A stretch of DNA of 39,741 nucleotides from a virus (lineage: Duplodnaviria > Heunggongvirae > Uroviricota > Caudoviricetes), in the IMG/VR virus record IMGVR_UViG_2778261267_000002; one strand, 5' to 3'. The translations under genes were made by a program, and so were the position numbers. This document shows positions 1-39,741 of the stretch, piece after piece. The notes beneath the pieces are model-generated. The model was not told where the DNA came from. It made no database searches and saw only the letters and a list, made by a program, of their open reading frames with translations. Every line of letters starts with the position of its first letter. The stretch's first letter is position 1.

Positions 1-1248
1 ATGGCACTGAATATTCCATTCAGAAATGCGTACTATCGTTTTGCATCCAGTTACTCATTTCTCTTTTTTATTTCCTGGTCGCTGTGGTGGTCGTTATACG
101 CTATTTGGCTGAAAGGACATCTAGGGTTGACAGGGACGGAATTAGGTACACTTTATTCGGTCAACCAGTTTACCAGCATTCTATTTATGATGTTCTACGG
201 CATCGTTCAGGATAAACTCGGTCTGAAGAAACCGCTCATCTGGTGTATGAGTTTTATCCTGGTCTTGACCGGACCGTTTATGATTTACGTTTATGAACCG
301 TTACTGCAAAGCAATTTTTCTGTAGGTCTAATTCTGGGTGCGCTCTTTTTTGGCCTGGGGTATCTGGCGGGATGCGGTTTGCTTGACAGCTTCACCGAAA
401 AAATGGCGCGAAATTTTCATTTCGAATATGGAACAGCGCGCGCCTGGGGATCTTTTGGCTATGCTATTGGCGCGTTCTTTGCCGGCATATTCTTTAGTAT
501 CAGTCCCCATATCAACTTCTGGTTGGTCTCGCTATTTGGTGCTGTATTTATGATGATCAACATGCGTTTTAAAGACCAGGATCACCAGTGCGTAGCGGCG
601 GATGCGGGAGGGGTAAAAAAAGAGGATTTTATCGCAGTTTTCAAGGATCGAAACTTCTGGGTTTTCGTCATATTTATTGTGGGGACGTGGTCTTTCTATA
701 ACATTTTTGATCAACAACTTTTTCCTGTCTTTTATGCAGGTTTATTCGAATCACACGATGTAGGAACGCGCCTGTATGGTTATCTCAACTCATTCCAGGT
801 GGTACTCGAAGCGCTGTGCATGGCGATTATTCCGTTCTTTGTGAATCGGGTAGGGCCAAAAAATGCATTACTTATCGGTGTTGTGATTATGGCGTTGCGT
901 ATCCTTTCCTGCGCGCTGTTCGTTAACCCCTGGATTATTTCATTAGTGAAGCTGTTACATGCCATTGAGGTTCCACTTTGTGTCATATCCGTCTTCAAAT
1001 ACAGCGTGGCAAACTTTGATAAGCGCCTGTCGTCGACGATCTTTCTGATTGGTTTTCAAATTGCCAGTTCGCTTGGGATTGTGCTGCTTTCAACGCCGAC
1101 TGGGATACTCTTTGACCACGCAGGCTACCAGACAGTTTTCTTCGCAATTTCGGGTATTGTCTGCCTGATGTTGCTATTTGGCATTTTCTTCCTGAGTAAA
1201 AAACGCGAGCAAATAGTTATGGAAACGCCTGTACCTTCAGCAATATAG
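1..1248 (+). CDS. cscB: Sucrose:H+ symporter, LacY-family (oligosaccharide:H+ symporter) MFS permease; host gene flanking the prophage
   Basis: 415-aa ORF, polytopic hydrophobic profile, collinear similarity to LacY/CscB recalled from memory (e.g. GLKKPLIW, FEYGTARAWGSFGYA motifs); typical ~50% GC. Confidence 0.8.
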   Translation: MALNIPFRNAYYRFASSYSFLFFISWSLWWSLYAIWLKGHLGLTGTELGTLYSVNQFTSILFMMFYGIVQDKLGLKKPLIWCMSFILVLTGPFMIYVYEPLLQSNFSVGLILGALFFGLGYLAGCGLLDSFTEKMARNFHFEYGTARAWGSFGYAIGAFFAGIFFSISPHINFWLVSLFGAVFMMINMRFKDQDHQCVAADAGGVKKEDFIAVFKDRNFWVFVIFIVGTWSFYNIFDQQLFPVFYAGLFESHDVGTRLYGYLNSFQVVLEALCMAIIPFFVNRVGPKNALLIGVVIMALRILSCALFVNPWIISLVKLLHAIEVPLCVISVFKYSVANFDKRLSSTIFLIGFQIASSLGIVLLSTPTGILFDHAGYQTVFFAISGIVCLMLLFGIFFLSKKREQIVMETPVPSAI

Positions 1249-5883: not shown

Positions 5884-6139
5884 ATGATTGTTCTCAGAAT
5901 GGACACGGCCCAAGGAAATAACGCTGATTTAATACTTCGACTCGGGACAAATTAAGGCATACCCGCATTCCTTCGCGGTCACCATTATGGCGATACCAGA
6001 GAGCTTTCTGCGTGTACATGCGTCTCTGTAACTTGCTCTCCTTCACTGTGGTTGCAAGTGACATGAATATCTCCTTCGTTACCGATTAATTCTTTCATCT
6101 GACGAATGAATTCTTCGTCTGACCAGTTATCTGTAAAAC

Positions 6140-6262
6140 TCATTTCCTGCGATACCACGGAAGGTTGATAGCTGATTTCATCTCTTTATTTGCTTCAAGC
6201 CACATTTTGGAATCACCAATAAATCTGGCTATTACTGCTTTGTTTTGTGCCGCACGAAGCAT
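6140..6262 (-). CDS. kil: Kil-like small protein (40 aa)
   Basis: MLRAAQNKAVIARFIGDSKMWLEANKEMKSAINLPWYRRK; FIGDxKM motif and position next to cIII as in P22/lambda. Confidence 0.4.
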   Translation of the reverse strand: MLRAAQNKAVIARFIGDSKMWLEANKEMKSAINLPWYRRK

Positions 6263-6276
6263 CTGGTGATTGATGG

Positions 6277-6411
6277 CTATTTCATTGCGCATAACGCCTC
6301 CAGTTGTTTCTTTGCTGCTCTGATTAATTGTTTAACTCGGCGTGATAATTCAGATTCGTGCGGGTAGAAAGCGGACATGACGCCGCTACCCGCGAGCTGA
6401 AAGTGCATCAT
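6277..6411 (-). CDS. cIII: CIII-like protein (FtsH inhibitor family, 44 aa)
   Basis: MMHFQLAGSGVMSAFYPHESELSRRVKQLIRAAKKQ...; HESxL amphipathic motif typical of CIII. Confidence 0.45.
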   Translation of the reverse strand: MMHFQLAGSGVMSAFYPHESELSRRVKQLIRAAKKQLEALCAMK

Positions 6412-6486
6412 GGGTAACTCCTTATATTTGATTGCATAACGAAAACGCCTCGAATGAAGCGTTATTGGTATGCGGTAACGCCGCGC

Positions 6487-6855
6487 TCAGGCGGCTTTGA
6501 TAGTCATATCATCTGAATCAAATATTCCTGATGTATCGATATCGGTAATTCTTATTCCTTCGCTACCATCCATTGGAGGCCATCCTTCCTGACCATTTCC
6601 ATCATTCCAGTCGAACTCACACATAACACCATATGCATTTAAGTCGCTTGAAATTGCTATAAGCAGAGCATGTTGCGCCAGCATGATTAATACAGCATTT
6701 AATACAGAGCCGTGTTTATTGAGTCGGTATTCAGAGTCTGACCAGAAATTATTAATCTGGTGAAGTTTTTCCTCTGTCATTACGTCATGGTCGATTTCAA
6801 TTTCTATTGATGCTTTCCAGTCGTAATCAATGATGTATTTTTTGATGTTTGACAT
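6487..6855 (-). CDS. Acidic hypothetical protein (122 aa)
   Basis: Clean ORF with strong Asp/Glu bias; sits in the ral/ea position between N-proximal terminator and cIII. Confidence 0.5.
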   Translation of the reverse strand: MSNIKKYIIDYDWKASIEIEIDHDVMTEEKLHQINNFWSDSEYRLNKHGSVLNAVLIMLAQHALLIAISSDLNAYGVMCEFDWNDGNGQEGWPPMDGSEGIRITDIDTSGIFDSDDMTIKAA

Positions 6856-6873
6856 CTGTTCATATCCTCATAG

Positions 6874-6901
6874 ATAAAAAATCGCCCTCACACTGGAGGG
6901 C
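6874..6901 (-). terminator. Rho-independent terminator on minus strand (GCCCTC-CAGTGT-GAGGGC + U-run), tL1-like
   Basis: Stem-loop plus T-run read on the minus strand, downstream of the 156-aa ORF. Confidence 0.5.
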
Positions 6902-6963
6902 AAAGAAGATTTCCAATAATCAGAACAAGTCGGCTCCTGTTTAGTTACGAGCGACATTGCTCC

Positions 6964-6991
6964 GTGTATTCACTCGTTGGAATGAATACAC
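6964..6991. repeat. Perfect 9-bp inverted repeat GTGTATTCA-N10-TGAATACAC
   Basis: Seen directly 15 nt downstream of the stop of the 156-aa ORF; no adjoining U-run. Confidence 0.5.
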
Positions 6992-7005
6992 AGTGCTTAT
7001 TTGTA

Positions 7006-7476
7006 CTAATAAAATACCCAATTTTCTGTTTCTTGGTTGTGTCCAAAGTTATATTCAATATCTGGTGTTGATGTATCAATATTCTTCATCCCATCAACAA
7101 GAGTTGATACAACAGCCAAATCTTGTTTGATTCTCATTAAATGGTATTTCTTCCGGCGCAATAAACTTTCAATGGCAAGTTTCTTCGTTGGGAATGCAAA
7201 AGATCTTTCTGCATTTTTTGCTACTTTCTTAATTGCATATCTATTTTTCCTTTGTTTCCATTCCTGTAACCACTGATTTGGTGCTGGTTTAAAATTAACA
7301 ATCCAATGCGCAGGAACCAACCATGCATAATGCTCTGTCTGATGAAAAGATATATATTGAAGTGCGAATATTTTTATCCCATCTTCTTCAACTGTCGCCT
7401 GGAATCTCCAGAAAACAGGCATTCCATCATGTTCAGTTTCTGATTCAGGAAAAGGTACGCTCCATGATTTTGTCAT
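7006..7476 (-). CDS. Hypothetical protein, AT-rich accessory gene downstream of N (156 aa)
   Basis: ORF in a ~33% GC island, preceded by a GAGGTGAG ribosome-binding site; no recognised motifs. Confidence 0.55.
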   Translation of the reverse strand: MTKSWSVPFPESETEHDGMPVFWRFQATVEEDGIKIFALQYISFHQTEHYAWLVPAHWIVNFKPAPNQWLQEWKQRKNRYAIKKVAKNAERSFAFPTKKLAIESLLRRKKYHLMRIKQDLAVVSTLVDGMKNIDTSTPDIEYNFGHNQETENWVFY

Positions 7477-7530
7477 ATCTCACCTCAAATAAGTGGTTTG
7501 CTGCGAAAGTAAATACGCTTAAGTTACCTG

Positions 7531-7668
7531 TTATTTATCCCACCAAGTTCCGTATCTATCTATCCAGTTACACCAATCATCGACATTCCATTTTGCTGTG
7601 TCGCATTTTGGCAATTGGCATGAATATCTACCTTCTTTGTAAAGTCGGCGTTTGACTTTCTTGAGCAT
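7531..7668 (-). CDS. Small Cys/Trp-rich hypothetical protein (45 aa)
   Basis: MLKKVKRRLYKEGRYSCQLPKCDTAKWNVDDWCNWIDRYGTWWDK; immediately downstream of N and upstream of the 156-aa ORF. Confidence 0.3.
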   Translation of the reverse strand: MLKKVKRRLYKEGRYSCQLPKCDTAKWNVDDWCNWIDRYGTWWDK

Positions 7669-7676
7669 GGCTCACC

Positions 7677-8009
7677 TCAATCGTAATAAGCTGGAATTGA
7701 TTTTCCGCGTTGCTTCTGGCGGCCTGAGCAAGTCACACCCATTTCACTGCGTGGCTTGCTGTACCATGTGCGCTGATTCTTGCGCTCAATACGCTGCAGG
7801 TTGCTTTCAATCTGTTCGTGGTATTCAGCCAGCACCGTAAGGTCTATCGGATTCAGTGCGCTTTCTACTCGTGATTTCGGTTTGCGATTCAGCGAGAGAA
7901 TAGGGCGGTTAACTGGTTTTGCGCTTACCCCAACCAACAGGGGATTTGCTGCTTTCCATTGAGCCTGTTTCTCTGCGCGACGTTCGCGGCGGCGTGCTTG
8001 TGCATCCAT
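7677..8009 (-). CDS. N: Antitermination protein N (lambda N)
   Basis: MDAQARRRERRAEKQAQWKAANPLLVGVSAKPVNRPILSLNRKPKSRVESALNPIDLTVLAEYH... near-identical to lambda N including the arginine-rich RNA-binding motif. Confidence 0.9.
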   Translation of the reverse strand: MDAQARRRERRAEKQAQWKAANPLLVGVSAKPVNRPILSLNRKPKSRVESALNPIDLTVLAEYHEQIESNLQRIERKNQRTWYSKPRSEMGVTCSGRQKQRGKSIPAYYD

Positions 8010-8283
8010 CTGGATTCTCCTGTCAGTTAGCTTTGGTGATTGGATGGCCGGCGCTGAACCCCGGCTTACTGGTTAGAGCGCCCGCACTACCAGTGACGCT
8101 GTCTTGAGGCGCAGATTGGTTACTGCTTGCCATGAGCGCTGTTTATACATTGGTCGAGCATCAGCCTGCTCATTCATCCAATCCCAAAGCCTTCTGCTTT
8201 AAATGCTGCCCTTCTTCAGGGCTAAATTTTTAAGAGCCTCACCTTCAATGGTGGTTAGTGCGTCCTGCTGATGGCTTAAAATT

Positions 8284-8352
8284 ACAAGAAAGATTGTATG
8301 CTGTAAACAAGAAATATTGTAAAAATGGGCGTGAAAAAACAAACTCCATTGT
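8284..8352. promoter_or_regulatory. OL operator cluster / pL region: three 14-bp 434-type operators (ACAAGAAAGATTGT, ACAAGAAATATTGT, ACAAACTCCATTGT)
   Basis: Three ACAA-N6-TTGT 14-mers at 8284..8297, 8307..8320, 8339..8352 seen directly, upstream of N on the minus strand. Confidence 0.6.
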
Positions 8353-8520
8353 TTTTAAACGGAAAATAGTTTGTTTTTTGGTTGTCGAAATCGAGGTGAG
8401 GATTACTGGTTGCAGGTTCCGACTACATCACCAACAAAGGATTTGGTTGATGTAAGTTGTTGCATACCTGGGATGTTCATTACTTTGGAGTAAAGAGCTT
8501 TTTTTGTCTGTAGTGATTGA

Positions 8521-9756
<1,236 letters not shown>

Positions 9757-32571: not shown

Positions 32572-34568
32572 TGGCTAAAGCATGGAAAGATGTTATCGCC
32601 TCTCCACAGTATCAGGCGTTAGCACCAGAACAAAAAGCGCAGGCTCAGGAGCAATACTTCAATGAAGTCGTGGCCCCGCAAGCCGGAGAAAATGCAGAGC
32701 AGGCTAAGCAAGCTTTCTATGCTGCCTATCCATTGCCATTTGTGCAGTCAGTGGAGACACAGCAACCAGTAGCACAGCAACAACCACAGCAAAGTGGATT
32801 TATGTCTGATCTTGGCGAAGCAGTAAAAGAGACTGGTCGCGGAATGGTGCAGGCTGGCGTGAACGTGGCAAACATACCTGCATCAGTTGCCGATGCTGTA
32901 ACAAGCGCGGCGGCTTGGGCTGGCGGTAAACTCGGTATTGGCGATGGTACATATCAACCAGCACCACGAGTAACAACGCAGGGATTAGAGCAGGACTTTG
33001 GCCTTCAGCAAGGTGCGCTGACTCCACAAACGACAGAGGGAAAGGTATTTGCTGAAGCATTGCCTTACCTCACTCCTGCTGGCGTTGAGAGAGCGGCAGC
33101 ACAGGCACCAACACTTGCTGGGCGAATTGCTCAGGGGGCAACTCGTCTTCTCGCTGAAAACGCAGTTGGATCACTTGCTGCAAATAGTGCGAAAGATGAT
33201 GCGGAAGCACTCGCCACCGATTTAGGCGTTGGTGTGCTGGCTGGCGGTGCTATTAACGCTGCCGGACGTGGATTAGGTGCTGCTTATCGTGGCGTTCGTG
33301 GTGCTATTGCGCCAGAAGCGCAGCAGGCTATCAGATTTGCAGAGCGTGAAGGAGTTCCTCTGCACACCACAGACCTGTTACAGCCTACTTCCCGCGTCGG
33401 GAAAATGGCGCAGACGACAGCGGAAAATATCCCCCTGGCCGGCACAAGCGGAATGAGAGCAACGCAACAGGAAGCGAGAAGCCAGTTGGTGCAGAGATTT
33501 GCTGATAAATTCGGTGAGTATGATCCAGCTGTTGTTATTGACAGCCTTAAAGCGAAAACATCAGGAATTCGTCGTGCTGCAGGTAATCGACTGGAGCAGG
33601 TTCAGAATGCTATGGCAGGAGTAAACATTCAGCCTGCACGAGCAATTCAGCAGATTGATACAGAAATATCTAACCTGCAGAAGCTTGGTAAGGTCGCTGA
33701 TAACGAGACTATTTCAAAACTTCAGTCATATCGTGATGAGCTTGTTCGCAATGCTGGCCCTGATGGTCCGGTAAATCTGGATTTGAAGCAATTAAGCGAC
33801 CTGCGCAGCCAGTTCAGAATGGACGTGAAGGGGGAGCGACCAGTGTTACCAAACCGTTCCGATGCCGCCATTCAACGTGTTTACAAGGCGATGACCGACG
33901 ATATCAATGGTGCCATTGGTCAGAATCTTGGCAACGATACTCTCCGTAAATATCAGCAGGCCAATGCCGTCTACGCTGACGAAGCGGCGAAACTAAAGAA
34001 TACCAGGCTGAAGAATGTTCTCATGAAAGGCGACCTGACGCCGGAAGTTGTCAACAACATGCTATTCAGCAAGAACAAATCGGAAATTAAGACGCTGTAT
34101 AACTCAGTTGGTCGTGTTGGCAGGGCGCAAATGCGCAATGGCATCATTGGAAAGGCGATGGAGAAATCTGGCGGATCACCTGACCAGTTCCTTCGGCAGC
34201 TTAACATCCTGCAAAACCAGACTGGCATCACATTTAAAGGTCAGGAAGCCGCTTATCTGAAAGGATTGAAAAACTACCTGCAATCCACGCAGCAGGCTGC
34301 AAAAGCGGCAGTAACAACACCAACAGGGCAGCAAACCATCCCGTTCATTATCGGATATGGTACGGCAATGAACCCGGCGACAACTGGCGCAGCGGTAAGC
34401 TACGGACTTCTTACTCGCGCCTATGAGAGCGAGCCATTCAGAAATGCAATGCTCCGAATGGCAAATACCCCACGCGGATCAACAGCGTTCGAGAAAGCCA
34501 TGCAGCAGGCACAAAAGGCCATTAACGCCCTGACTCAGGGGGCTAAGTCTGATGCGTTGTCAGAATAG
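32571..34568 (+). CDS. Ejection protein, P22 gp16-like position
   Basis: Synteny and size (665 aa); Ala/Gly/Gln-rich. Confidence 0.6.
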   Translation: MAKAWKDVIASPQYQALAPEQKAQAQEQYFNEVVAPQAGENAEQAKQAFYAAYPLPFVQSVETQQPVAQQQPQQSGFMSDLGEAVKETGRGMVQAGVNVANIPASVADAVTSAAAWAGGKLGIGDGTYQPAPRVTTQGLEQDFGLQQGALTPQTTEGKVFAEALPYLTPAGVERAAAQAPTLAGRIAQGATRLLAENAVGSLAANSAKDDAEALATDLGVGVLAGGAINAAGRGLGAAYRGVRGAIAPEAQQAIRFAEREGVPLHTTDLLQPTSRVGKMAQTTAENIPLAGTSGMRATQQEARSQLVQRFADKFGEYDPAVVIDSLKAKTSGIRRAAGNRLEQVQNAMAGVNIQPARAIQQIDTEISNLQKLGKVADNETISKLQSYRDELVRNAGPDGPVNLDLKQLSDLRSQFRMDVKGERPVLPNRSDAAIQRVYKAMTDDINGAIGQNLGNDTLRKYQQANAVYADEAAKLKNTRLKNVLMKGDLTPEVVNNMLFSKNKSEIKTLYNSVGRVGRAQMRNGIIGKAMEKSGGSPDQFLRQLNILQNQTGITFKGQEAAYLKGLKNYLQSTQQAAKAAVTTPTGQQTIPFIIGYGTAMNPATTGAAVSYGLLTRAYESEPFRNAMLRMANTPRGSTAFEKAMQQAQKAINALTQGAKSDALSE

Positions 34569-34732: not shown

Positions 34733-36838
34733 ATGACAGACATTACAGCCAATGTTGTAGTGAGTATGCCTTCGCAACTCTTCACTATGGCGCGTTCTTT
34801 TAAAGCCGTAGCCAATGGCAAAATTTATATCGGTAAAATTGATGCTGACCCGGTAAATCCTGAAAACCAGATTCAGGTTTATGTAGAGAACGAAGACGGA
34901 TCTCACATTCCTGTTTCGCAACCAATCATTATCAATTCTGCTGGTTACCCTGTATATAACGGACAGATTGCCAAGTTTGTTACGGTGCAAGGTCATTCTA
35001 TGGCTGTTTATGATGCGTATGGTGCACAGCAGTTCTATTTTCCAAACGTGCTGAAGTATGATCCTGATCAGCTAAGGCAGAGTCTAACAAAATATGGCTC
35101 AACAATTGATCAGATAGCGCATCGGGCGACAGCCATTAAAACATTTGAAGAGTTTGGGGCAATTGGTGATGGGATTGTTGACGACACCACATCTATGTTA
35201 TCAGCATTAGCATGGCTCGAAGGAATACCTTTTGGTAAATTAACAGGGAGAGTAGGTGCGAGATATCGCATAACACAAAGTCTTGTAATGAAGTTCGATG
35301 GCTCGTATACACAGGATGTTACATCTACACGGTATATTGATTTTACTGGTACAACAATCGTAGCAGGAGACTCGGGAATTACATGTTTAAGAATGAGCCA
35401 TGATTTCTGCCACATAATCAATCCTGTAGTAATTAACCCAGATAACTACTCTGACGTTATTGCCTACGCCATTGCTCCTGAAGACGAATCTCAGGCAACC
35501 ATGCGTGTGTCACAGCAATTTTGTGTAATGGAGAATCCACGCGCAAGGGGAGTAAAAGTCGGACTGAAATTCAAGCCGGGACCAACAGTATCAGGTGAAA
35601 ACAGCGGCTCATACTACCACTCAATTATGAACCCTAACTTTGAGCGTGTAGACTGCGGGTTTTATTTTGAACGCAGCGTCAGTGGCGATAATAATAATAC
35701 GCGCATCCATATATATAACCCTCATCATGCTACGGGAAATTGTAGCTTTTGGATTGAGTCTACCGACACTTTGCGCGTATTTGGTGGTCACGCTGAGAAT
35801 ATCACTCTAGGTACTTGGCCTGCAGACGTGCCATGCGCAGTGCGTATTGTTAAGACGGTGAACAGTGATACATCAGTGGCAGGTAATATACACTTCCGTG
35901 GATTTTTTGGCGAGTTGTGTACGCGTCCGTATCAGATTGATTTTAATGTGAAAACCTATGAAAACCACTTTGACTGGTCATGGGTGTATCTAACTGAGAA
36001 CGCACAGCGTCAAGGTGCTAACAGTTATGAAAGCATATCCCAGTTTGACGGGGTTCTTGTTAGCTCAAATATGGACCCAGACCAGAAAAACGTTACTGGA
36101 TGCCGTAGGCGTTCTAGTGGTAAAGGGGCGCTTATTATTCAGCCTGACGACTCATCTCCGGCCGAGCTTTATTCTGACACAAAATGGAAAATTACCTCAT
36201 CTGTACTAGAGGCTCCTGTTCAGGACTTACGCAACGATAATAGTGAAATACAGATTCTTGGTGCCACTAATTCAGGTATCCTGCTCACTACGACTACTGG
36301 TACAAAGGGGGTAACATTATCGAGTTATGACGGTAAATTGTCACCAGGAAACCCAAGCGGCGACTTTAAGATTGGCGGGTACAATGGATTCATGCCTGAT
36401 GCAGACAATACGACTGTATTAGGATATACATCACATAGATGGTCTGTTGTGTATGCTGCCACGGGCACAATAAGCACATCGGATGAAACACTGAAGGTAA
36501 AAACCCCGGCAACAAACGAGAGTGCGGAAAGGGAAGCGGCTAATGAAATTCGCAAGAATATTATTCGTTATAAGTTTGCTGATGCCATAGAACTTAAGGG
36601 AGAAGAGTCTGCACGTGTCCACTTTGGTGTTGGTGCGCAAACTGTTGGTTCTATCCTGACAAAGCACGGACTTAAACCAGAGGATTACGCATTCTGGTGC
36701 AAGGACGAGTGGGAAGAATCTTCTGAAATAAGCATTAATCCAGAAACGTTAGAAGAAGTTGTAACAGTTAAACCAGCGGGCGTAAGGTACGGAATACGCT
36801 ATGATGAGCTTATTATGTTCTTAGCAATGTATGCGTAA
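34733..36838 (+). CDS. Tailspike: P22-like N-terminal head-binding domain, distinct receptor-binding domain, C-terminal intramolecular chaperone (peptidase S74-like) domain
   Basis: First ~110 aa [58 protein letters not shown] match P22 gp9; C-terminus has SDETLK and [13 protein letters not shown] / [15 protein letters not shown] motifs. Confidence 0.85.
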
Positions 36839-36859: not shown

Positions 36860-38002
36860 ATGTACAATGCTGCAAATTTTTTTGGGGTTATTAACATGAA
36901 CGCCTTTTTGCTTTTTATTGCAGTAATTGGTGTAATTATAGATTTAGCATCTCCGTTGACAGTTTATGGTGTACAACTATTCCTATTTCCATTCGCATGC
37001 CTTTTTTTATACGCAAAAAGTGTAAGTAAAATGACGTATCAGTCATTATTATTTATAATAATGGTGGTATCTATTGTTATAATAAGTTCATTTATCCAAG
37101 TTTATATATCAAAGCATAATGAGATATTATTATCACAGACGCTTAAAGTAATAATTTGGGTGGTGTCGTCATACTTGTTATATGTTGGATGTAAGGGGGT
37201 GGATAAAGATACTTTAGAGAGATCCATAAATGCAGCGCTAGTAGTTTTCATGCTCTCTTTATTTATTCAAGTAGTATCGAAGCTTTTATTTGGTTCTATT
37301 GTTGACTACTCTATGCTAATTGGTGGCGAACCATCAAGAAATATGATGACTGGAGTTGGGTTTAGGCCAACAGGGCTAACTGCAGAACCAAGTGTATATT
37401 GCGGAATAACAGCGTGGTTAATTACGTTACGATATGCAATTAATAAAAAGATTGATTATTTGTTTTTACTGTCATGCGTTTCAATGACGTTTACATTGTC
37501 ATTTGTTGGAATATTTCTTTGCTTTCTCATGCTATGTGTTGGTATGATGAGAATTAAGATGATTATCCCAGTGATAGCAATATTTGTGATTGGGTATCTT
37601 TCTGTTTTAAATATTGTAAATGACAGGATTGTTTTATTTCTATCTGGGGCTGATGGTAGCAATAATATAAAGATAGAGACCATTCTTGATTTTATTGGAA
37701 ATCAAAATTTATATATTTTTGGTTATGGTTTGATTGGTAAGTCAGAATCTGCGCCATCATTTTATGAGTCGTTATATGATATGACTATATTTGGAAACTT
37801 TATTACAATATTTGGTCTTCCATTTGGAGTATTATGCATAGTATTATATTGTGTTTTTATAATTAAAATTAAAATAACAAAAAGGGCAAAGCTAATGATG
37901 TTGCTATCATCTTTAAAAATTAGCCTGCCGTTTTTTGCTGTGTTTTATATGGCTATTGCTATGATATGTGCAATTTCAAATAAGAACAAAGCGTTAACGT
38001 AA
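36860..38002 (+). CDS. AT-rich polytopic inner-membrane protein (~10 TM), possible Wzy-like polysaccharide polymerase / O-antigen modification protein (alternative start 36896)
   Basis: Highly hydrophobic 380-aa ORF at ~30% GC with a hydrophilic loop containing R and G residues; sits in the tailspike-int slot. Confidence 0.6.
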   Translation: MYNAANFFGVINMNAFLLFIAVIGVIIDLASPLTVYGVQLFLFPFACLFLYAKSVSKMTYQSLLFIIMVVSIVIISSFIQVYISKHNEILLSQTLKVIIWVVSSYLLYVGCKGVDKDTLERSINAALVVFMLSLFIQVVSKLLFGSIVDYSMLIGGEPSRNMMTGVGFRPTGLTAEPSVYCGITAWLITLRYAINKKIDYLFLLSCVSMTFTLSFVGIFLCFLMLCVGMMRIKMIIPVIAIFVIGYLSVLNIVNDRIVLFLSGADGSNNIKIETILDFIGNQNLYIFGYGLIGKSESAPSFYESLYDMTIFGNFITIFGLPFGVLCIVLYCVFIIKIKITKRAKLMMLLSSLKISLPFFAVFYMAIAMICAISNKNKALT

Positions 38003-38302
38003 CAACTTGCACATAATAATATCTCTTTTTTTAGTTTCTGGTGATTGTATTGTTATACTATAATCACCAGAATAAAACTCAGTTAAAGTGAATTTTTCTT
38101 TATCAATAGATATATAATCAAGAGAACGAGCCTCGTTAAAAAATTCTTTTTCAAGGCTAAATTCTACATCATCTAGATGCACTTTGGACGCATTTGATGT
38201 GTTAACTTTAACAAGATGAGAACCACATACTATTTCATTTATCTTTGCGCTTGATGAATTACTAACCATAAAGGTAAGTATAAAAAACAAGTATTTAAAC
38301 AT
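37994..38302 (-). CDS. Small secreted protein (102 aa, signal peptide), AT-rich
   Basis: N-terminus MFKYLFFILTFMVSNSSSA; convergent with the membrane protein gene, overlapping by 9 nt. Confidence 0.45.
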   Translation of the reverse strand: MFKYLFFILTFMVSNSSSAKINEIVCGSHLVKVNTSNASKVHLDDVEFSLEKEFFNEARSLDYISIDKEKFTLTEFYSGDYSITIQSPETKKRDIIMCKLLR

Positions 38303-38583
38303 ATATCACCATCTTTGAAAAATATTCTACAAATAGTAGCATGAACATCATGCTAATTAAAGAAAGATTGCAAAACCATTTGCCATTTGTCAAGCACTTA
38401 GGTGATAAATGTATGGGGTTGTGATGTTTATATTTTAGTAAGTTCGTGATCATATAATTATTTACATGTAATGATATGTACCACATCAGGTGGTAGTATT
38501 TGTATCCACTTGAGGCAAAACTGAGAAACGCAAAGCTTTGTACTGGATTGCAAGGCTTTATGTCATTCGATAGTTAAGGTGGA

Positions 38584-39741
38584 TCACTCCACCTTCCCAT
38601 CAAGCCAGTCCGCCCACCACTGCATCATTTCTCTGCGCTTATCGAGATACTGAGCATGGTTGTAAATCCCGCGCACAGATCCGCCGTTGGCATGTGCCAG
38701 TTGCACCTCAATCGCGTCAGCAGGCCATTCGTGCTCGTTCATAATCGTGCTGAATTCATGCCTGAATCCGTGACCGCTTTCCAGACCTTCATAGCCGATT
38801 TGTTTGATCACAAGTAATACCGCGTTCTCGCAGATTGGCTTCTTCTTATCGTTGCGCCCGGCAAAAACAAACTCTGACACTGGTTTAGTGATTGAGCTTA
38901 GCGTAGTGAGAAGTTCAACCACCTGGTCTGACATAGGAACCACATGAATTTTGCGACCCTTCATCACACTGGCGTCGATGGTGATAATCCTGTTTTCAAA
39001 ATCGACGTTCTTCCATTGCATGGAACGAAGCTCTTTTGTTCTTAGGGCTGTGTAGCGTAAAACCTTGGTGGCAATGAGCGATACGATACTTCCTGAAAAT
39101 GTTGCCAGTGCTTTGTTGAATGCCGGGATCTGGTCTGCAGGAAGAAACGGGAAGTTCTTCTTGCGGTATCCCTTCATGGCGTCAGCAAGATCAGGTGCCG
39201 GGTTATATTTAGCCCTTCCGGTGACAATAGCGTAACGGAAAACCTCGCCGCATCTTCTGCGGGCTTTGTTGGCTCGCTCCATTGCACCGCGATCTTCAAA
39301 TCTGCGGATTACTTCCAGCAGTTGCATCGGCTCAATATCCTGAATTTCAAGACCGCCGATGATGGGTAAAATGTCGTCATCAAACATTTTGGCAAGTTCA
39401 GTTGCATAGCCTACTGACCAGACTTGCTTCTTGTGCTCGTACCATTCCTTGTAAATGGCACTAAAGGAATTGTTGTTAGACGAAGCCTTTTTCGCTTTTA
39501 CCGGATCGATGCCAACCGAGATGTCTTTCCTCGCGGTCCATGCTTTATCTCTTGCCTCCTGCAAAGTCATTAGCGGATATTTTCCTACGGTCAGGATTTT
39601 CTCCTTACCGTCAATCTTGTAGCGAAGCTGCCATACCTTTTTCCCTGACACAGGGACATAAAGGTACAGGCCATTACCATCGAGAAGGCGGTATGGTTTC
39701 TCTTTCGGCTTTGCTGCTTCAATCTGCTTAACGGTGAGCAT
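38584..39741 (-). CDS. intS: Tyrosine integrase, P4/IntS type (385 aa); start codon is the last three bases of the window
   Basis: Full-length ORF with tyrosine-recombinase catalytic signature (R...H-x-x-R...Y); matches KplE1/CPS-53 IntS as recalled. Confidence 0.85.
   Translation of the reverse strand: MLTVKQIEAAKPKEKPYRLLDGNGLYLYVPVSGKKVWQLRYKIDGKEKILTVGKYPLMTLQEARDKAWTARKDISVGIDPVKAKKASSNNNSFSAIYKEWYEHKKQVWSVGYATELAKMFDDDILPIIGGLEIQDIEPMQLLEVIRRFEDRGAMERANKARRRCGEVFRYAIVTGRAKYNPAPDLADAMKGYRKKNFPFLPADQIPAFNKALATFSGSIVSLIATKVLRYTALRTKELRSMQWKNVDFENRIITIDASVMKGRKIHVVPMSDQVVELLTTLSSITKPVSEFVFAGRNDKKKPICENAVLLVIKQIGYEGLESGHGFRHEFSTIMNEHEWPADAIEVQLAHANGGSVRGIYNHAQYLDKRREMMQWWADWLDGKVE

What the first reader, a model, noticed from the sequence alone, without database searches (positions are those of the whole stretch)
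7006..7668. AT-rich two-gene accessory cassette immediately downstream of N
A 45-aa Cys/Trp-rich ORF and a 156-aa ORF sit at ~33% GC, flanked by lambda N on one side and a terminator plus a perfect 9-bp inverted repeat (6874..6991) on the other. This is the position where lambdoid phages carry exclusion or anti-restriction functions (ral, sieB). Neither protein resembles anything I can name.
Basis: partly seen in the sequence, partly recalled or inferred. Interest (0 to 1): 0.6.

Follow-up and report, generated by a model that had tools for sequence, protein, structure and literature searches.

The report
Two separate uncharacterised early phage genes
The two AT-rich ORFs after N are real but independent phage genes, near-identical to HK97 gp45 / 933W L0079 and related to T4 gp55.4; both are long catalogued, neither has a known function, and they do not form a paired system.

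Summary
Both ORFs exist as described, on the minus strand in the leftward early (pL) operon. The order is nutL boxB, N, ORF45 (7531-7668), ORF156 (7006-7476), a hairpin, an intrinsic terminator, then ea10. GC is 36.5%, not 33%; the window averages 47.3%.

ORF156 is 98-99% identical to HK97 gp45, 933W L0079 and phi24B vb_24B_11c (PHROG 1636). It occurs in 598 of 5426 complete E. coli genomes. It belongs to a large stand-alone family of at least 589 clusters. That family has no Pfam model, no defence-library hit and no solved structural relative, despite a confident model (pLDDT 92).

ORF45 is a Pfam DUF5484 member, 41-50% identical to T-even gp55.4.

The two genes assort independently. Only about 45 genomes carry both. 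Ral can replace ORF156 after ORF45, and other genes insert between them. So this is a variable accessory slot, the place where lambda carries ral and sieB, and not a cassette.

The terminator and inverted repeat are conserved lambdoid joint sequence. No promoter of their own or membrane segment was found, and homologues sit in T-even and other non-lambdoid phage early regions. This favours early lytic accessory roles over prophage exclusion. ORF156 may bind nucleic acid. Function remains untested.

The parts
7531..7668 (-). ORF45: a 45-aa basic protein (pI 9.4). It belongs to Pfam DUF5484 / PHROG 1871 and is a homologue of T-even gp55.4.
   Evidence: Listed as an ORF. Pfam DUF5484 E 2.2e-10, 40.5 bits against a 27-bit cut-off. 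PHROG 1871 E 3e-21. tblastn finds 1041 phage records, mostly T-even-like, including T2 gene 55.4. Alignment A5 has 11 invariant residues, and the three Cys are not among them. The start codon lies 8 nt after the N stop, and the Shine-Dalgarno sequence TGAGGTGAG overlaps that stop.
7006..7476 (-). ORF156: a 156-aa soluble protein, near-identical to HK97 gp45, 933W L0079 and phi24B vb_24B_11c (PHROG 1636). It belongs to a large phage family with no Pfam model and no solved structural relative.
7477..7530 (-). A 54-bp spacer between the two genes. It is a mosaic joint and carries the ORF156 ribosome-binding site.
   Evidence: Homology breakpoints with other phages fall at 7473-7504. This is also where Nmad5 or DUF7446 genes are inserted, and where Ral replaces ORF156. 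The TGAGGTGAG motif is shown.
6964..6991 (-). A perfect 9-bp inverted repeat forming a hairpin with no U-tract in the ORF156 3' region. It is conserved lambdoid sequence.
   Evidence: Read directly; repeat search; RNA fold. It lies inside the 98.6%-identical lambda flank, window 6435-6996 = lambda 33483-34045. It is also linked to ORF156 in HK97 and H-19B.
6882..6903 (-). An intrinsic terminator (GCCCTC stem, T-run). It is the first terminator predicted downstream of pL, and it is shared with lambda and HK97.
   Evidence: Found by the terminator scan. It corresponds to lambda at about 33930-33951. It also corresponds to the 'putative terminator' annotated after gp45 in the HK97 record.
7677..8009 (-). 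Antiterminator N, the upstream flank. Its 3' end (7677-7763) travels with ORF45, and lambda identity resumes only at 7753.
   Evidence: Pfam N36 E 3e-25. Breakpoints are given.
8208..8222 (-). The nutL boxB hairpin upstream of N. It places both ORFs in the pL transcript.
   Evidence: Window 8183-8273 matches lambda 35494-35583, which contains the annotated NutL at 35518-35534. The hairpin GCCCTTCTTCAGGGC is reported.
6487..6855 (-). ea10 (DUF2528), the downstream flank. It is nearly identical to lambda.
   Evidence: Pfam DUF2528 E 3e-47. Identity to lambda is shown.

Best explanation
These are two unrelated single-gene accessory modules in the variable slot just downstream of N in the leftward early (pL) operon of a lambdoid phage. 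They are transcribed with N from pL. No promoter of their own is detected, and the first intrinsic terminator lies after ORF156. They should therefore be silent in a repressed prophage and be made very early in lytic growth or induction. ORF156 (HK97 gp45 / 933W L0079 family) is a soluble stand-alone protein. Its model has a three-stranded beta-sheet, a fourth short strand and a long helix. A strongly basic central segment (residues 74-116, net +13) holds the residues conserved across the family (K83, K84, K87, R91, R108, K109, R115). I infer that it binds nucleic acid, or an acidic partner, and assists the phage early in infection. The role could be DNA-metabolism support, host takeover or counter-defence. 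ORF45 is a lambdoid copy of the small T-even early protein gp55.4. It presumably acts on a host component common to enterobacteria. Shown: gene identity, family membership, independent assortment, operon position and lack of known relatives. Inferred: expression timing, nucleic-acid binding and the early lytic role.
For: Operon position: nutL boxB, N, ORF45 and ORF156 are all on the minus strand with 8-nt and 54-nt gaps and strong Shine-Dalgarno sequences. No minus-strand promoter-like site occurs in 6400-8400, and the only minus-strand terminators are at 6903-6882 and 6463-6444. Independent modules: genome counts are 598, 146 and about 45, and mosaic breakpoints fall at 6874/6876, 7473-7504 and 7753-7763. 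Alternative architectures include N-ORF156 in 933W, HK97 and H-19B; N-ORF45-Ral; and N-ORF45-Nmad5 or DUF7446-ORF156. Lytic rather than lysogenic role: ORF45 homologues occur in over 1000 T-even-type phage records. ORF156 homologues lie in early small-gene arrays of non-lambdoid phages next to primase, methyltransferase, RecE or DNA polymerase A genes. In other temperate phages they lie in the repressor-proximal early operon upstream of recombination genes. Charge distribution and absence of a membrane segment are shown; conserved basic residues. All lambda pL genes except N are dispensable accessory functions (PMC10695390).
Against: No experiment or homology links either protein to any activity. 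The basic patch could bind a protein rather than nucleic acid. The promoter scan uses only a sigma-70 consensus, so a weak or activator-dependent promoter would be missed. Rho-dependent termination between N and ORF156 cannot be predicted with these tools, so co-expression with N before antitermination is not established. The lifestyle of the non-lambdoid phages that carry ORF156 homologues was not verified. Genomic neighbours of distant homologues are heterogeneous, so no single pathway emerges.
Confidence: 0.55

Rival explanations
1. Counter-defence genes in the narrow sense. One or both proteins would inhibit a host immune system, for example restriction, as functional analogues of Ral, which occupies the same slot in lambda.
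For: The position matches lambda ral. After ORF45, prophages carry either Ral or ORF156 at the same joint. The genes are early, non-essential in type, low in GC and patchily distributed. ral is conditionally essential only on hosts with type I restriction (PMC10695390). This shows how such a gene would escape notice.
Against: There is no similarity to Ral or any other named family. ORF156 is basic, unlike the acidic DNA-mimic anti-restriction proteins. AntiDefenseFinder, run by others on phi345, phi367 and phi419, reported only methyltransferases, Ral and Gam (PMC12502783); these phages carry ORF156. phi367 has both Ral and ORF156. The family extends to phages of distant hosts, which argues for a generic target.
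Confidence: 0.25
2. A prophage-expressed superinfection exclusion or abortive-infection function, like sieB or rex, that protects the lysogen.
For: lambda sieB lies in this slot. Low-GC accessory genes in prophages are often defence genes. The gene is frequent in E. coli prophages.
Against: The genes are co-directional with N inside the repressible pL operon, and no promoter-like site is found. Neither protein has a membrane segment. There is no meaningful PADLOC hit. ORF45 homologues are in virulent T-even phages. ORF156 homologues lie in early arrays of non-lambdoid phages.
Confidence: 0.08
3. A cooperating two-gene cassette, such as a toxin-antitoxin pair or an effector with its partner, as the finding's title implies.
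For: The genes are adjacent, share an identical Shine-Dalgarno motif and have similar GC in this window. About 45 E. coli genomes carry them together.
Against: About 92% of genomes with ORF156 lack ORF45, and about 69% of those with ORF45 lack ORF156 nearby. Other genes insert between them. The wider families live in different phage groups.
Confidence: 0.03

Closest known systems
HK97 gp45 / 933W L0079 / phi24B vb_24B_11c (PHROG 1636)
   Same: 98-99% amino-acid identity over all 156 residues. Same place directly downstream of N, followed by the same terminator.
   Different: Nothing of substance; it is the same gene in another mosaic background. Here an extra small gene (ORF45) lies between it and N. 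All records annotate it as hypothetical, and no paper on it was found.
T4/T2 gp55.4 (Pfam DUF5484, PHROG 1871)
   Same: Similar length (43-48 aa). 41-50% identity with invariant K6, R7, L9, K11, G13, Y15, P20, K21, T24, W27 and W32. It is an early-region small ORF.
   Different: ORF45 sits in a temperate lambdoid pL operon rather than the T-even 55-nrd early cluster. It has three Cys that T-even copies lack, so the Cys content has no conserved role. The function of gp55.4 is itself unknown.
lambda Ral (restriction alleviation)
   Same: Same slot between N and ea10/cIII, same operon, and the same dispensable accessory character. Ral and ORF156 are alternatives at the same joint after ORF45.
   Different: No sequence similarity, and 66 aa against 156 aa. 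The two can occur in one phage (phi367). Activity is untested.
lambda SieB (superinfection exclusion)
   Same: Same slot in lambda.
   Different: ORF156 and ORF45 have no hydrophobic segment, no detectable promoter of their own and no similarity to SieB. From prior knowledge, not tested here, SieB is membrane-associated and expressed in the lysogen.
Lambdoid 'morons' / mosaic single-gene modules (Juhala et al. 2000, from memory)
   Same: Low-GC single genes bounded by short conserved joints and a downstream terminator, present or absent among otherwise similar phages.
   Different: No promoter of their own was found. They appear to be ordinary members of the pL transcript rather than autonomous transcription units.

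Membership tests
Pfam DUF5484 (T4 gp55.4 family), for ORF45 | HMM score above Pfam's gathering threshold, covering nearly the whole model | tested here: met
   40.5 bits against a 27-bit cut-off, E 2.2e-10, residues 5-42 on profile positions 3-41 of 43.
Pfam DUF5484 (T4 gp55.4 family), for ORF45 | Direct similarity to T-even gp55.4 proteins, with a shared conserved motif | tested here: met
   tblastn E 1e-6 to 7e-6 to T2/T4-type phages, with T2 gene 55.4 under the match. Alignment A5 has 11 invariant positions.
PHROG 1636 / HK97 gp45 / 933W L0079, for ORF156 | Full-length sequence match to the family profile and its named members | tested here: met
   E 3.6e-111 over positions 1-156 of 156. 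98.1% identity to HK97 Gp45 and 98.7% to 933W.
Ral anti-restriction family | Sequence similarity to Ral | tested here: not met
   No Ral model appears among Pfam, PHROG or NCBIfam hits, even at E<=1. In L004 and L007, Ral is a different 66-aa gene at the same joint.
Ral anti-restriction family | Alleviation of type I restriction or enhancement of modification | not testable with these tools
   This needs plating assays on hsd+ hosts.
SieB / prophage exclusion proteins | Sequence similarity; a membrane segment; expression in the lysogen from its own promoter | tested here: not met
   No family hit. The maximum Kyte-Doolittle 19-residue hydropathy is 0.53 for ORF156 and -0.75 for ORF45. No minus-strand promoter-like site occurs in 6400-8400 (consensus scan only).
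Known anti-phage defence systems (PADLOC-DB) | A significant match to a defence-protein model | tested here: not met
   The only hit is Cas1_II at 12.6 bits, E 0.015, for ORF156. ORF45 has none.
Obligate two-gene system (toxin-antitoxin-like cassette) | Consistent co-occurrence and adjacency of the two genes | tested here: not met
   The genome counts are 598 with ORF156, 146 with ORF45 and about 45 with both. Insertions between the genes and alternative partners are documented.
Moron (autonomous promoter-gene-terminator unit) | Own promoter, downstream terminator and atypical composition | tested here: inconclusive
   The terminator is present and GC is low. No promoter was found by the consensus scan. 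Transcript mapping is needed.

The most novel reading that the evidence does not exclude
ORF156 would represent a large family of stand-alone phage proteins that has never been described. The family has at least 589 clusters at 50% identity, no Pfam model, and no solved structural relative despite a pLDDT-92 model. In this reading its conserved basic face binds DNA or RNA. It would carry out a new early-infection function, either counter-defence or control of host or phage nucleic-acid metabolism. The family is carried by HK97, by many Stx-converting phages (79 phage records at 95% identity or more) and by 11% of complete E. coli genomes.
Probability: 0.3. Interest if true: 0.6.

Novelty: already known. 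Interest (0 to 1): 0.33.

Why it matters
The immediate result is a correction. This is not a new defence or anti-defence cassette. It is two long-catalogued hypothetical genes in the well-known variable slot after N.

The residual value is that ORF156 is one of the commonest uncharacterised early genes of Stx-converting and HK97-like phages. It is in 598 of 5426 complete E. coli genomes, with up to 4 copies per genome. The present work gives it a confident structural model with no known relative, a family-wide conserved basic motif, and a clear expression hypothesis. These make it a tractable target for knock-out and binding experiments.

The link between a lambdoid early gene and T4 gp55.4 likewise gives a second genetic system in which to study a T4 gene of unknown function.

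Tried and rejected
- **First structure model.** The first AlphaFold2 run used a shallow 23-sequence alignment of close homologues and was unusable (pLDDT 58). Adding distant homologues fixed it.
- **ORF45 as a zinc ribbon.** Rejected. The protein has only three Cys, and none is conserved in T-even homologues.
- **Fusion partners as a clue to function.** None was found. The 150 listed family members are 75-203 aa and none shows an added domain, and none of 67 diverse members has a Pfam domain.
- **Conserved neighbours.** Contexts are heterogeneous. An Nmad5 gene lies within 0-3 kb in three contexts. That is too few to interpret.
- **Literature.** Searches for L0079, HK97 gp45, vb_24B_11c, DUF5484, accession numbers and PHROG ids found nothing relevant. 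One search on '55.4' returned only numerical noise.
- **Silas et al. accessory-gene library.** Neither protein sequence was found in the supplementary files held as text, at least one of which was cut when stored.
- **Antisense ORFs.** Those at 7323-7655, 7037-7276, 6957-7130 and 7652-7840 have no PHROG match.
- **RNA families.** Rfam found nothing in 6000-8600.
- **Profile searches of PDB sequences.** They found nothing.

Full report
**What is there.** The region lies on the minus strand of a lambdoid phage genome with a 434-type cI (8805-9437) and a lambda-type N (7677-8009; Pfam N36 E 3e-25). Reading leftward from pL, the order is:
- nutL boxB at 8222-8208. Window 8183-8273 matches lambda 35494-35583, which contains NutL.
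- N.
- ORF45 (7668-7531), which starts 8 nt after the N stop.
- A 54-bp spacer.
- ORF156 (7476-7006).
- A hairpin built on a perfect 9-bp inverted repeat (6964-6972 and 6983-6991).
- An intrinsic terminator (6903-6882).
- ea10 (6855-6487), then cIII.

Both ORFs are preceded by TGAGGTGAG. The coordinates and flanks in the finding are therefore correct. GC is 36.5%, not about 33%; the window mean is 47.3%, and the stretch is in the lowest 4.8% of equal-sized windows.

**Are they genes?** Yes, both.
- ORF156 has full-length homologues from 99% down to 22% identity.
- Against homologues at 57-64% identity, synonymous sites are saturated (pS 0.79-0.91) while pN is 0.20-0.27.
- With a 58-sequence alignment, AlphaFold2 gives pLDDT 92.2 and pTM 0.79.
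- ORF45 passes the Pfam gathering threshold for DUF5484 (40.5 against 27 bits). It is 41-50% identical to gp55.4 of T2/T4-type phages, with 11 invariant positions.
- Antisense ORFs have no family match, and Rfam finds no RNA family.

**What are they?**
- ORF156 is PHROG 1636 (E 4e-111). It is 98-99% identical to HK97 Gp45, 933W L0079, phi24B vb_24B_11c and an unannotated ORF of H-19B. In each case it lies directly after N.
- It occurs in 598 of 5426 complete E. coli genomes, with up to four copies per genome.
- It has no Pfam, NCBIfam or PADLOC family.
- A profile search of 1.84 billion representatives finds 589 clusters at E<=1e-3. The 150 listed are 75-203 aa, nearly all matched as a single stretch, with no sign of an added domain.
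- None of 67 diverse members has a Pfam domain.
- It matches only uncharacterised phage proteins in BFVD, with TM 0.44-0.66.
- ORF45 is a lambdoid member of the T-even gp55.4 family. Its three Cys are not conserved, so the Cys-rich character has no family-wide meaning.

**Is it a cassette?** No.
- ORF45 is in 146 genomes, and the pair, adjacent or nearly so, is in about 45.
- The ORF156 module spans about 6874-7504 and carries the hairpin and terminator with it in HK97, H-19B and several prophages.
- The ORF45 module spans 7474-7763 and includes the last 87 nt of N.
- In two prophages ORF45 is followed by Ral instead of ORF156.
- In others an Nmad5 or a DUF7446 gene is inserted in the spacer.
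- Lambda matches the window at 98.6% identity over 6435-6996, which includes the terminator and inverted repeat, and again from 7753. Its ral-orf28-sieB segment is what is replaced here.
- The terminator and repeat are therefore conserved joint sequence, not the edge of an insertion.

**How it most likely works.** The two genes sit inside the pL transcript. No minus-strand promoter-like site occurs in 6400-8400, and the first intrinsic terminator lies after ORF156. I infer that both are silent in the repressed prophage and are made with N at the very start of lytic development. Rho-dependent termination cannot be assessed with these tools.
- ORF156 is soluble.
- Its central segment 74-116 has net charge +13, between acidic ends.
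- That segment holds the residues conserved down to 22% identity: K83, K84, K87, R91, R108, K109 and R115.
- This suggests a nucleic-acid-binding face, or binding to an acidic partner.
- Homologues sit in early small-gene arrays of non-lambdoid phages. Their neighbours include primase, cytosine methyltransferase, RecE, and Nmad5 with DNA polymerase A.
- In other temperate phages they sit in the repressor-proximal early operon ahead of recombination genes or just before xis-int.
- ORF45's relatives are in virulent T-even phages.

Together this favours early lytic accessory roles. The role could be host takeover, DNA-metabolism support or counter-defence. It argues against a sieB-like exclusion function in the lysogen. 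In lambda, every pL gene except N is dispensable, and ral matters only on restricting hosts (PMC10695390). This shows how conditional such functions can be.

**Rivals.**
- A Ral-like counter-defence role is the main alternative. The slot is the same, and Ral and ORF156 are alternatives at one joint. However, there is no similarity, the protein is basic, the two can co-occur, and a published AntiDefenseFinder run on ORF156-bearing phages reported only methyltransferases, Ral and Gam (PMC12502783).
- Prophage exclusion and a cooperating two-gene system are both disfavoured by the evidence above.

**Novelty and verdict.** As sequences, both genes have been in the databases since the HK97, 933W and T4 genomes, and both belong to existing families (PHROG 1636; DUF5484). 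No paper on either was found. The finding is a correct observation of an ordinary feature of lambdoid mosaics, wrongly framed as a cassette. Its interest lies only in the unknown function of a very common gene with an apparently new fold.

Noticed in passing
window 1-1248 (+): A complete 415-aa LacY-family sugar/H+ symporter (PF01306, E 2e-193). It lies in opposite orientation between the distal end of the early-left operon and the integrase at 38584-39741, if the window is a circularly permuted phage genome. Phage vB_EcoP-611R6, whose record lists a 'sucrose transport protein' among its features, matches the window from base 1. This may be a phage-borne metabolic gene.
   Followed up: partly
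window 36860-38002 (+), inside the 37400-38400 GC minimum: The lowest-GC stretch of the window (27-28%). It holds a 380-aa ORF with no Pfam hit, directly after the tailspike (34733-36838). It may be a serotype-conversion or defence gene.
   Followed up: no
window 8521-8880 (-): A 119-aa ORF just downstream of the 434-type cI, with an internal signal-peptide-like start ([20 protein letters not shown]) and no Pfam hit. It occupies the place of rexAB in lambda.
   Followed up: no
window 7677-7763 (-), the 3' end of N: A mosaic joint lies inside N. The last roughly 28 codons of N travel with ORF45 in prophages whose N genes otherwise differ. Identity to lambda N begins only at 7753, so the C-terminus of N differs from lambda's.
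   Followed up: partly
L018 2678-3301, L030 4149-4757, L031 1919-2584: An Nmad5-family gene (putative nucleotide modification) lies next to or within 3 kb of ORF156-family genes in three unrelated phage contexts. In one case it sits between N-ORF45 and ORF156 in an E. coli prophage. The sample is too small to judge.
   Followed up: partly
L020 2495-2641 (+), Erwinia phage phiEt88; also most E. coli RefSeq records: The ORF45 homologue is usually unannotated. In phiEt88 a 174-aa ORF is annotated on the opposite strand over it. In many E. coli genomes no feature is called there.
   Followed up: partly
L026 8545-8703 and 10210-10449: A roughly 60-kb non-lambdoid phage shares several small early-gene families with lambdoid pL operons: DUF2737, DUF7446 and the ORF156 family. 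This suggests a common pool of mobile early accessory genes.
   Followed up: no
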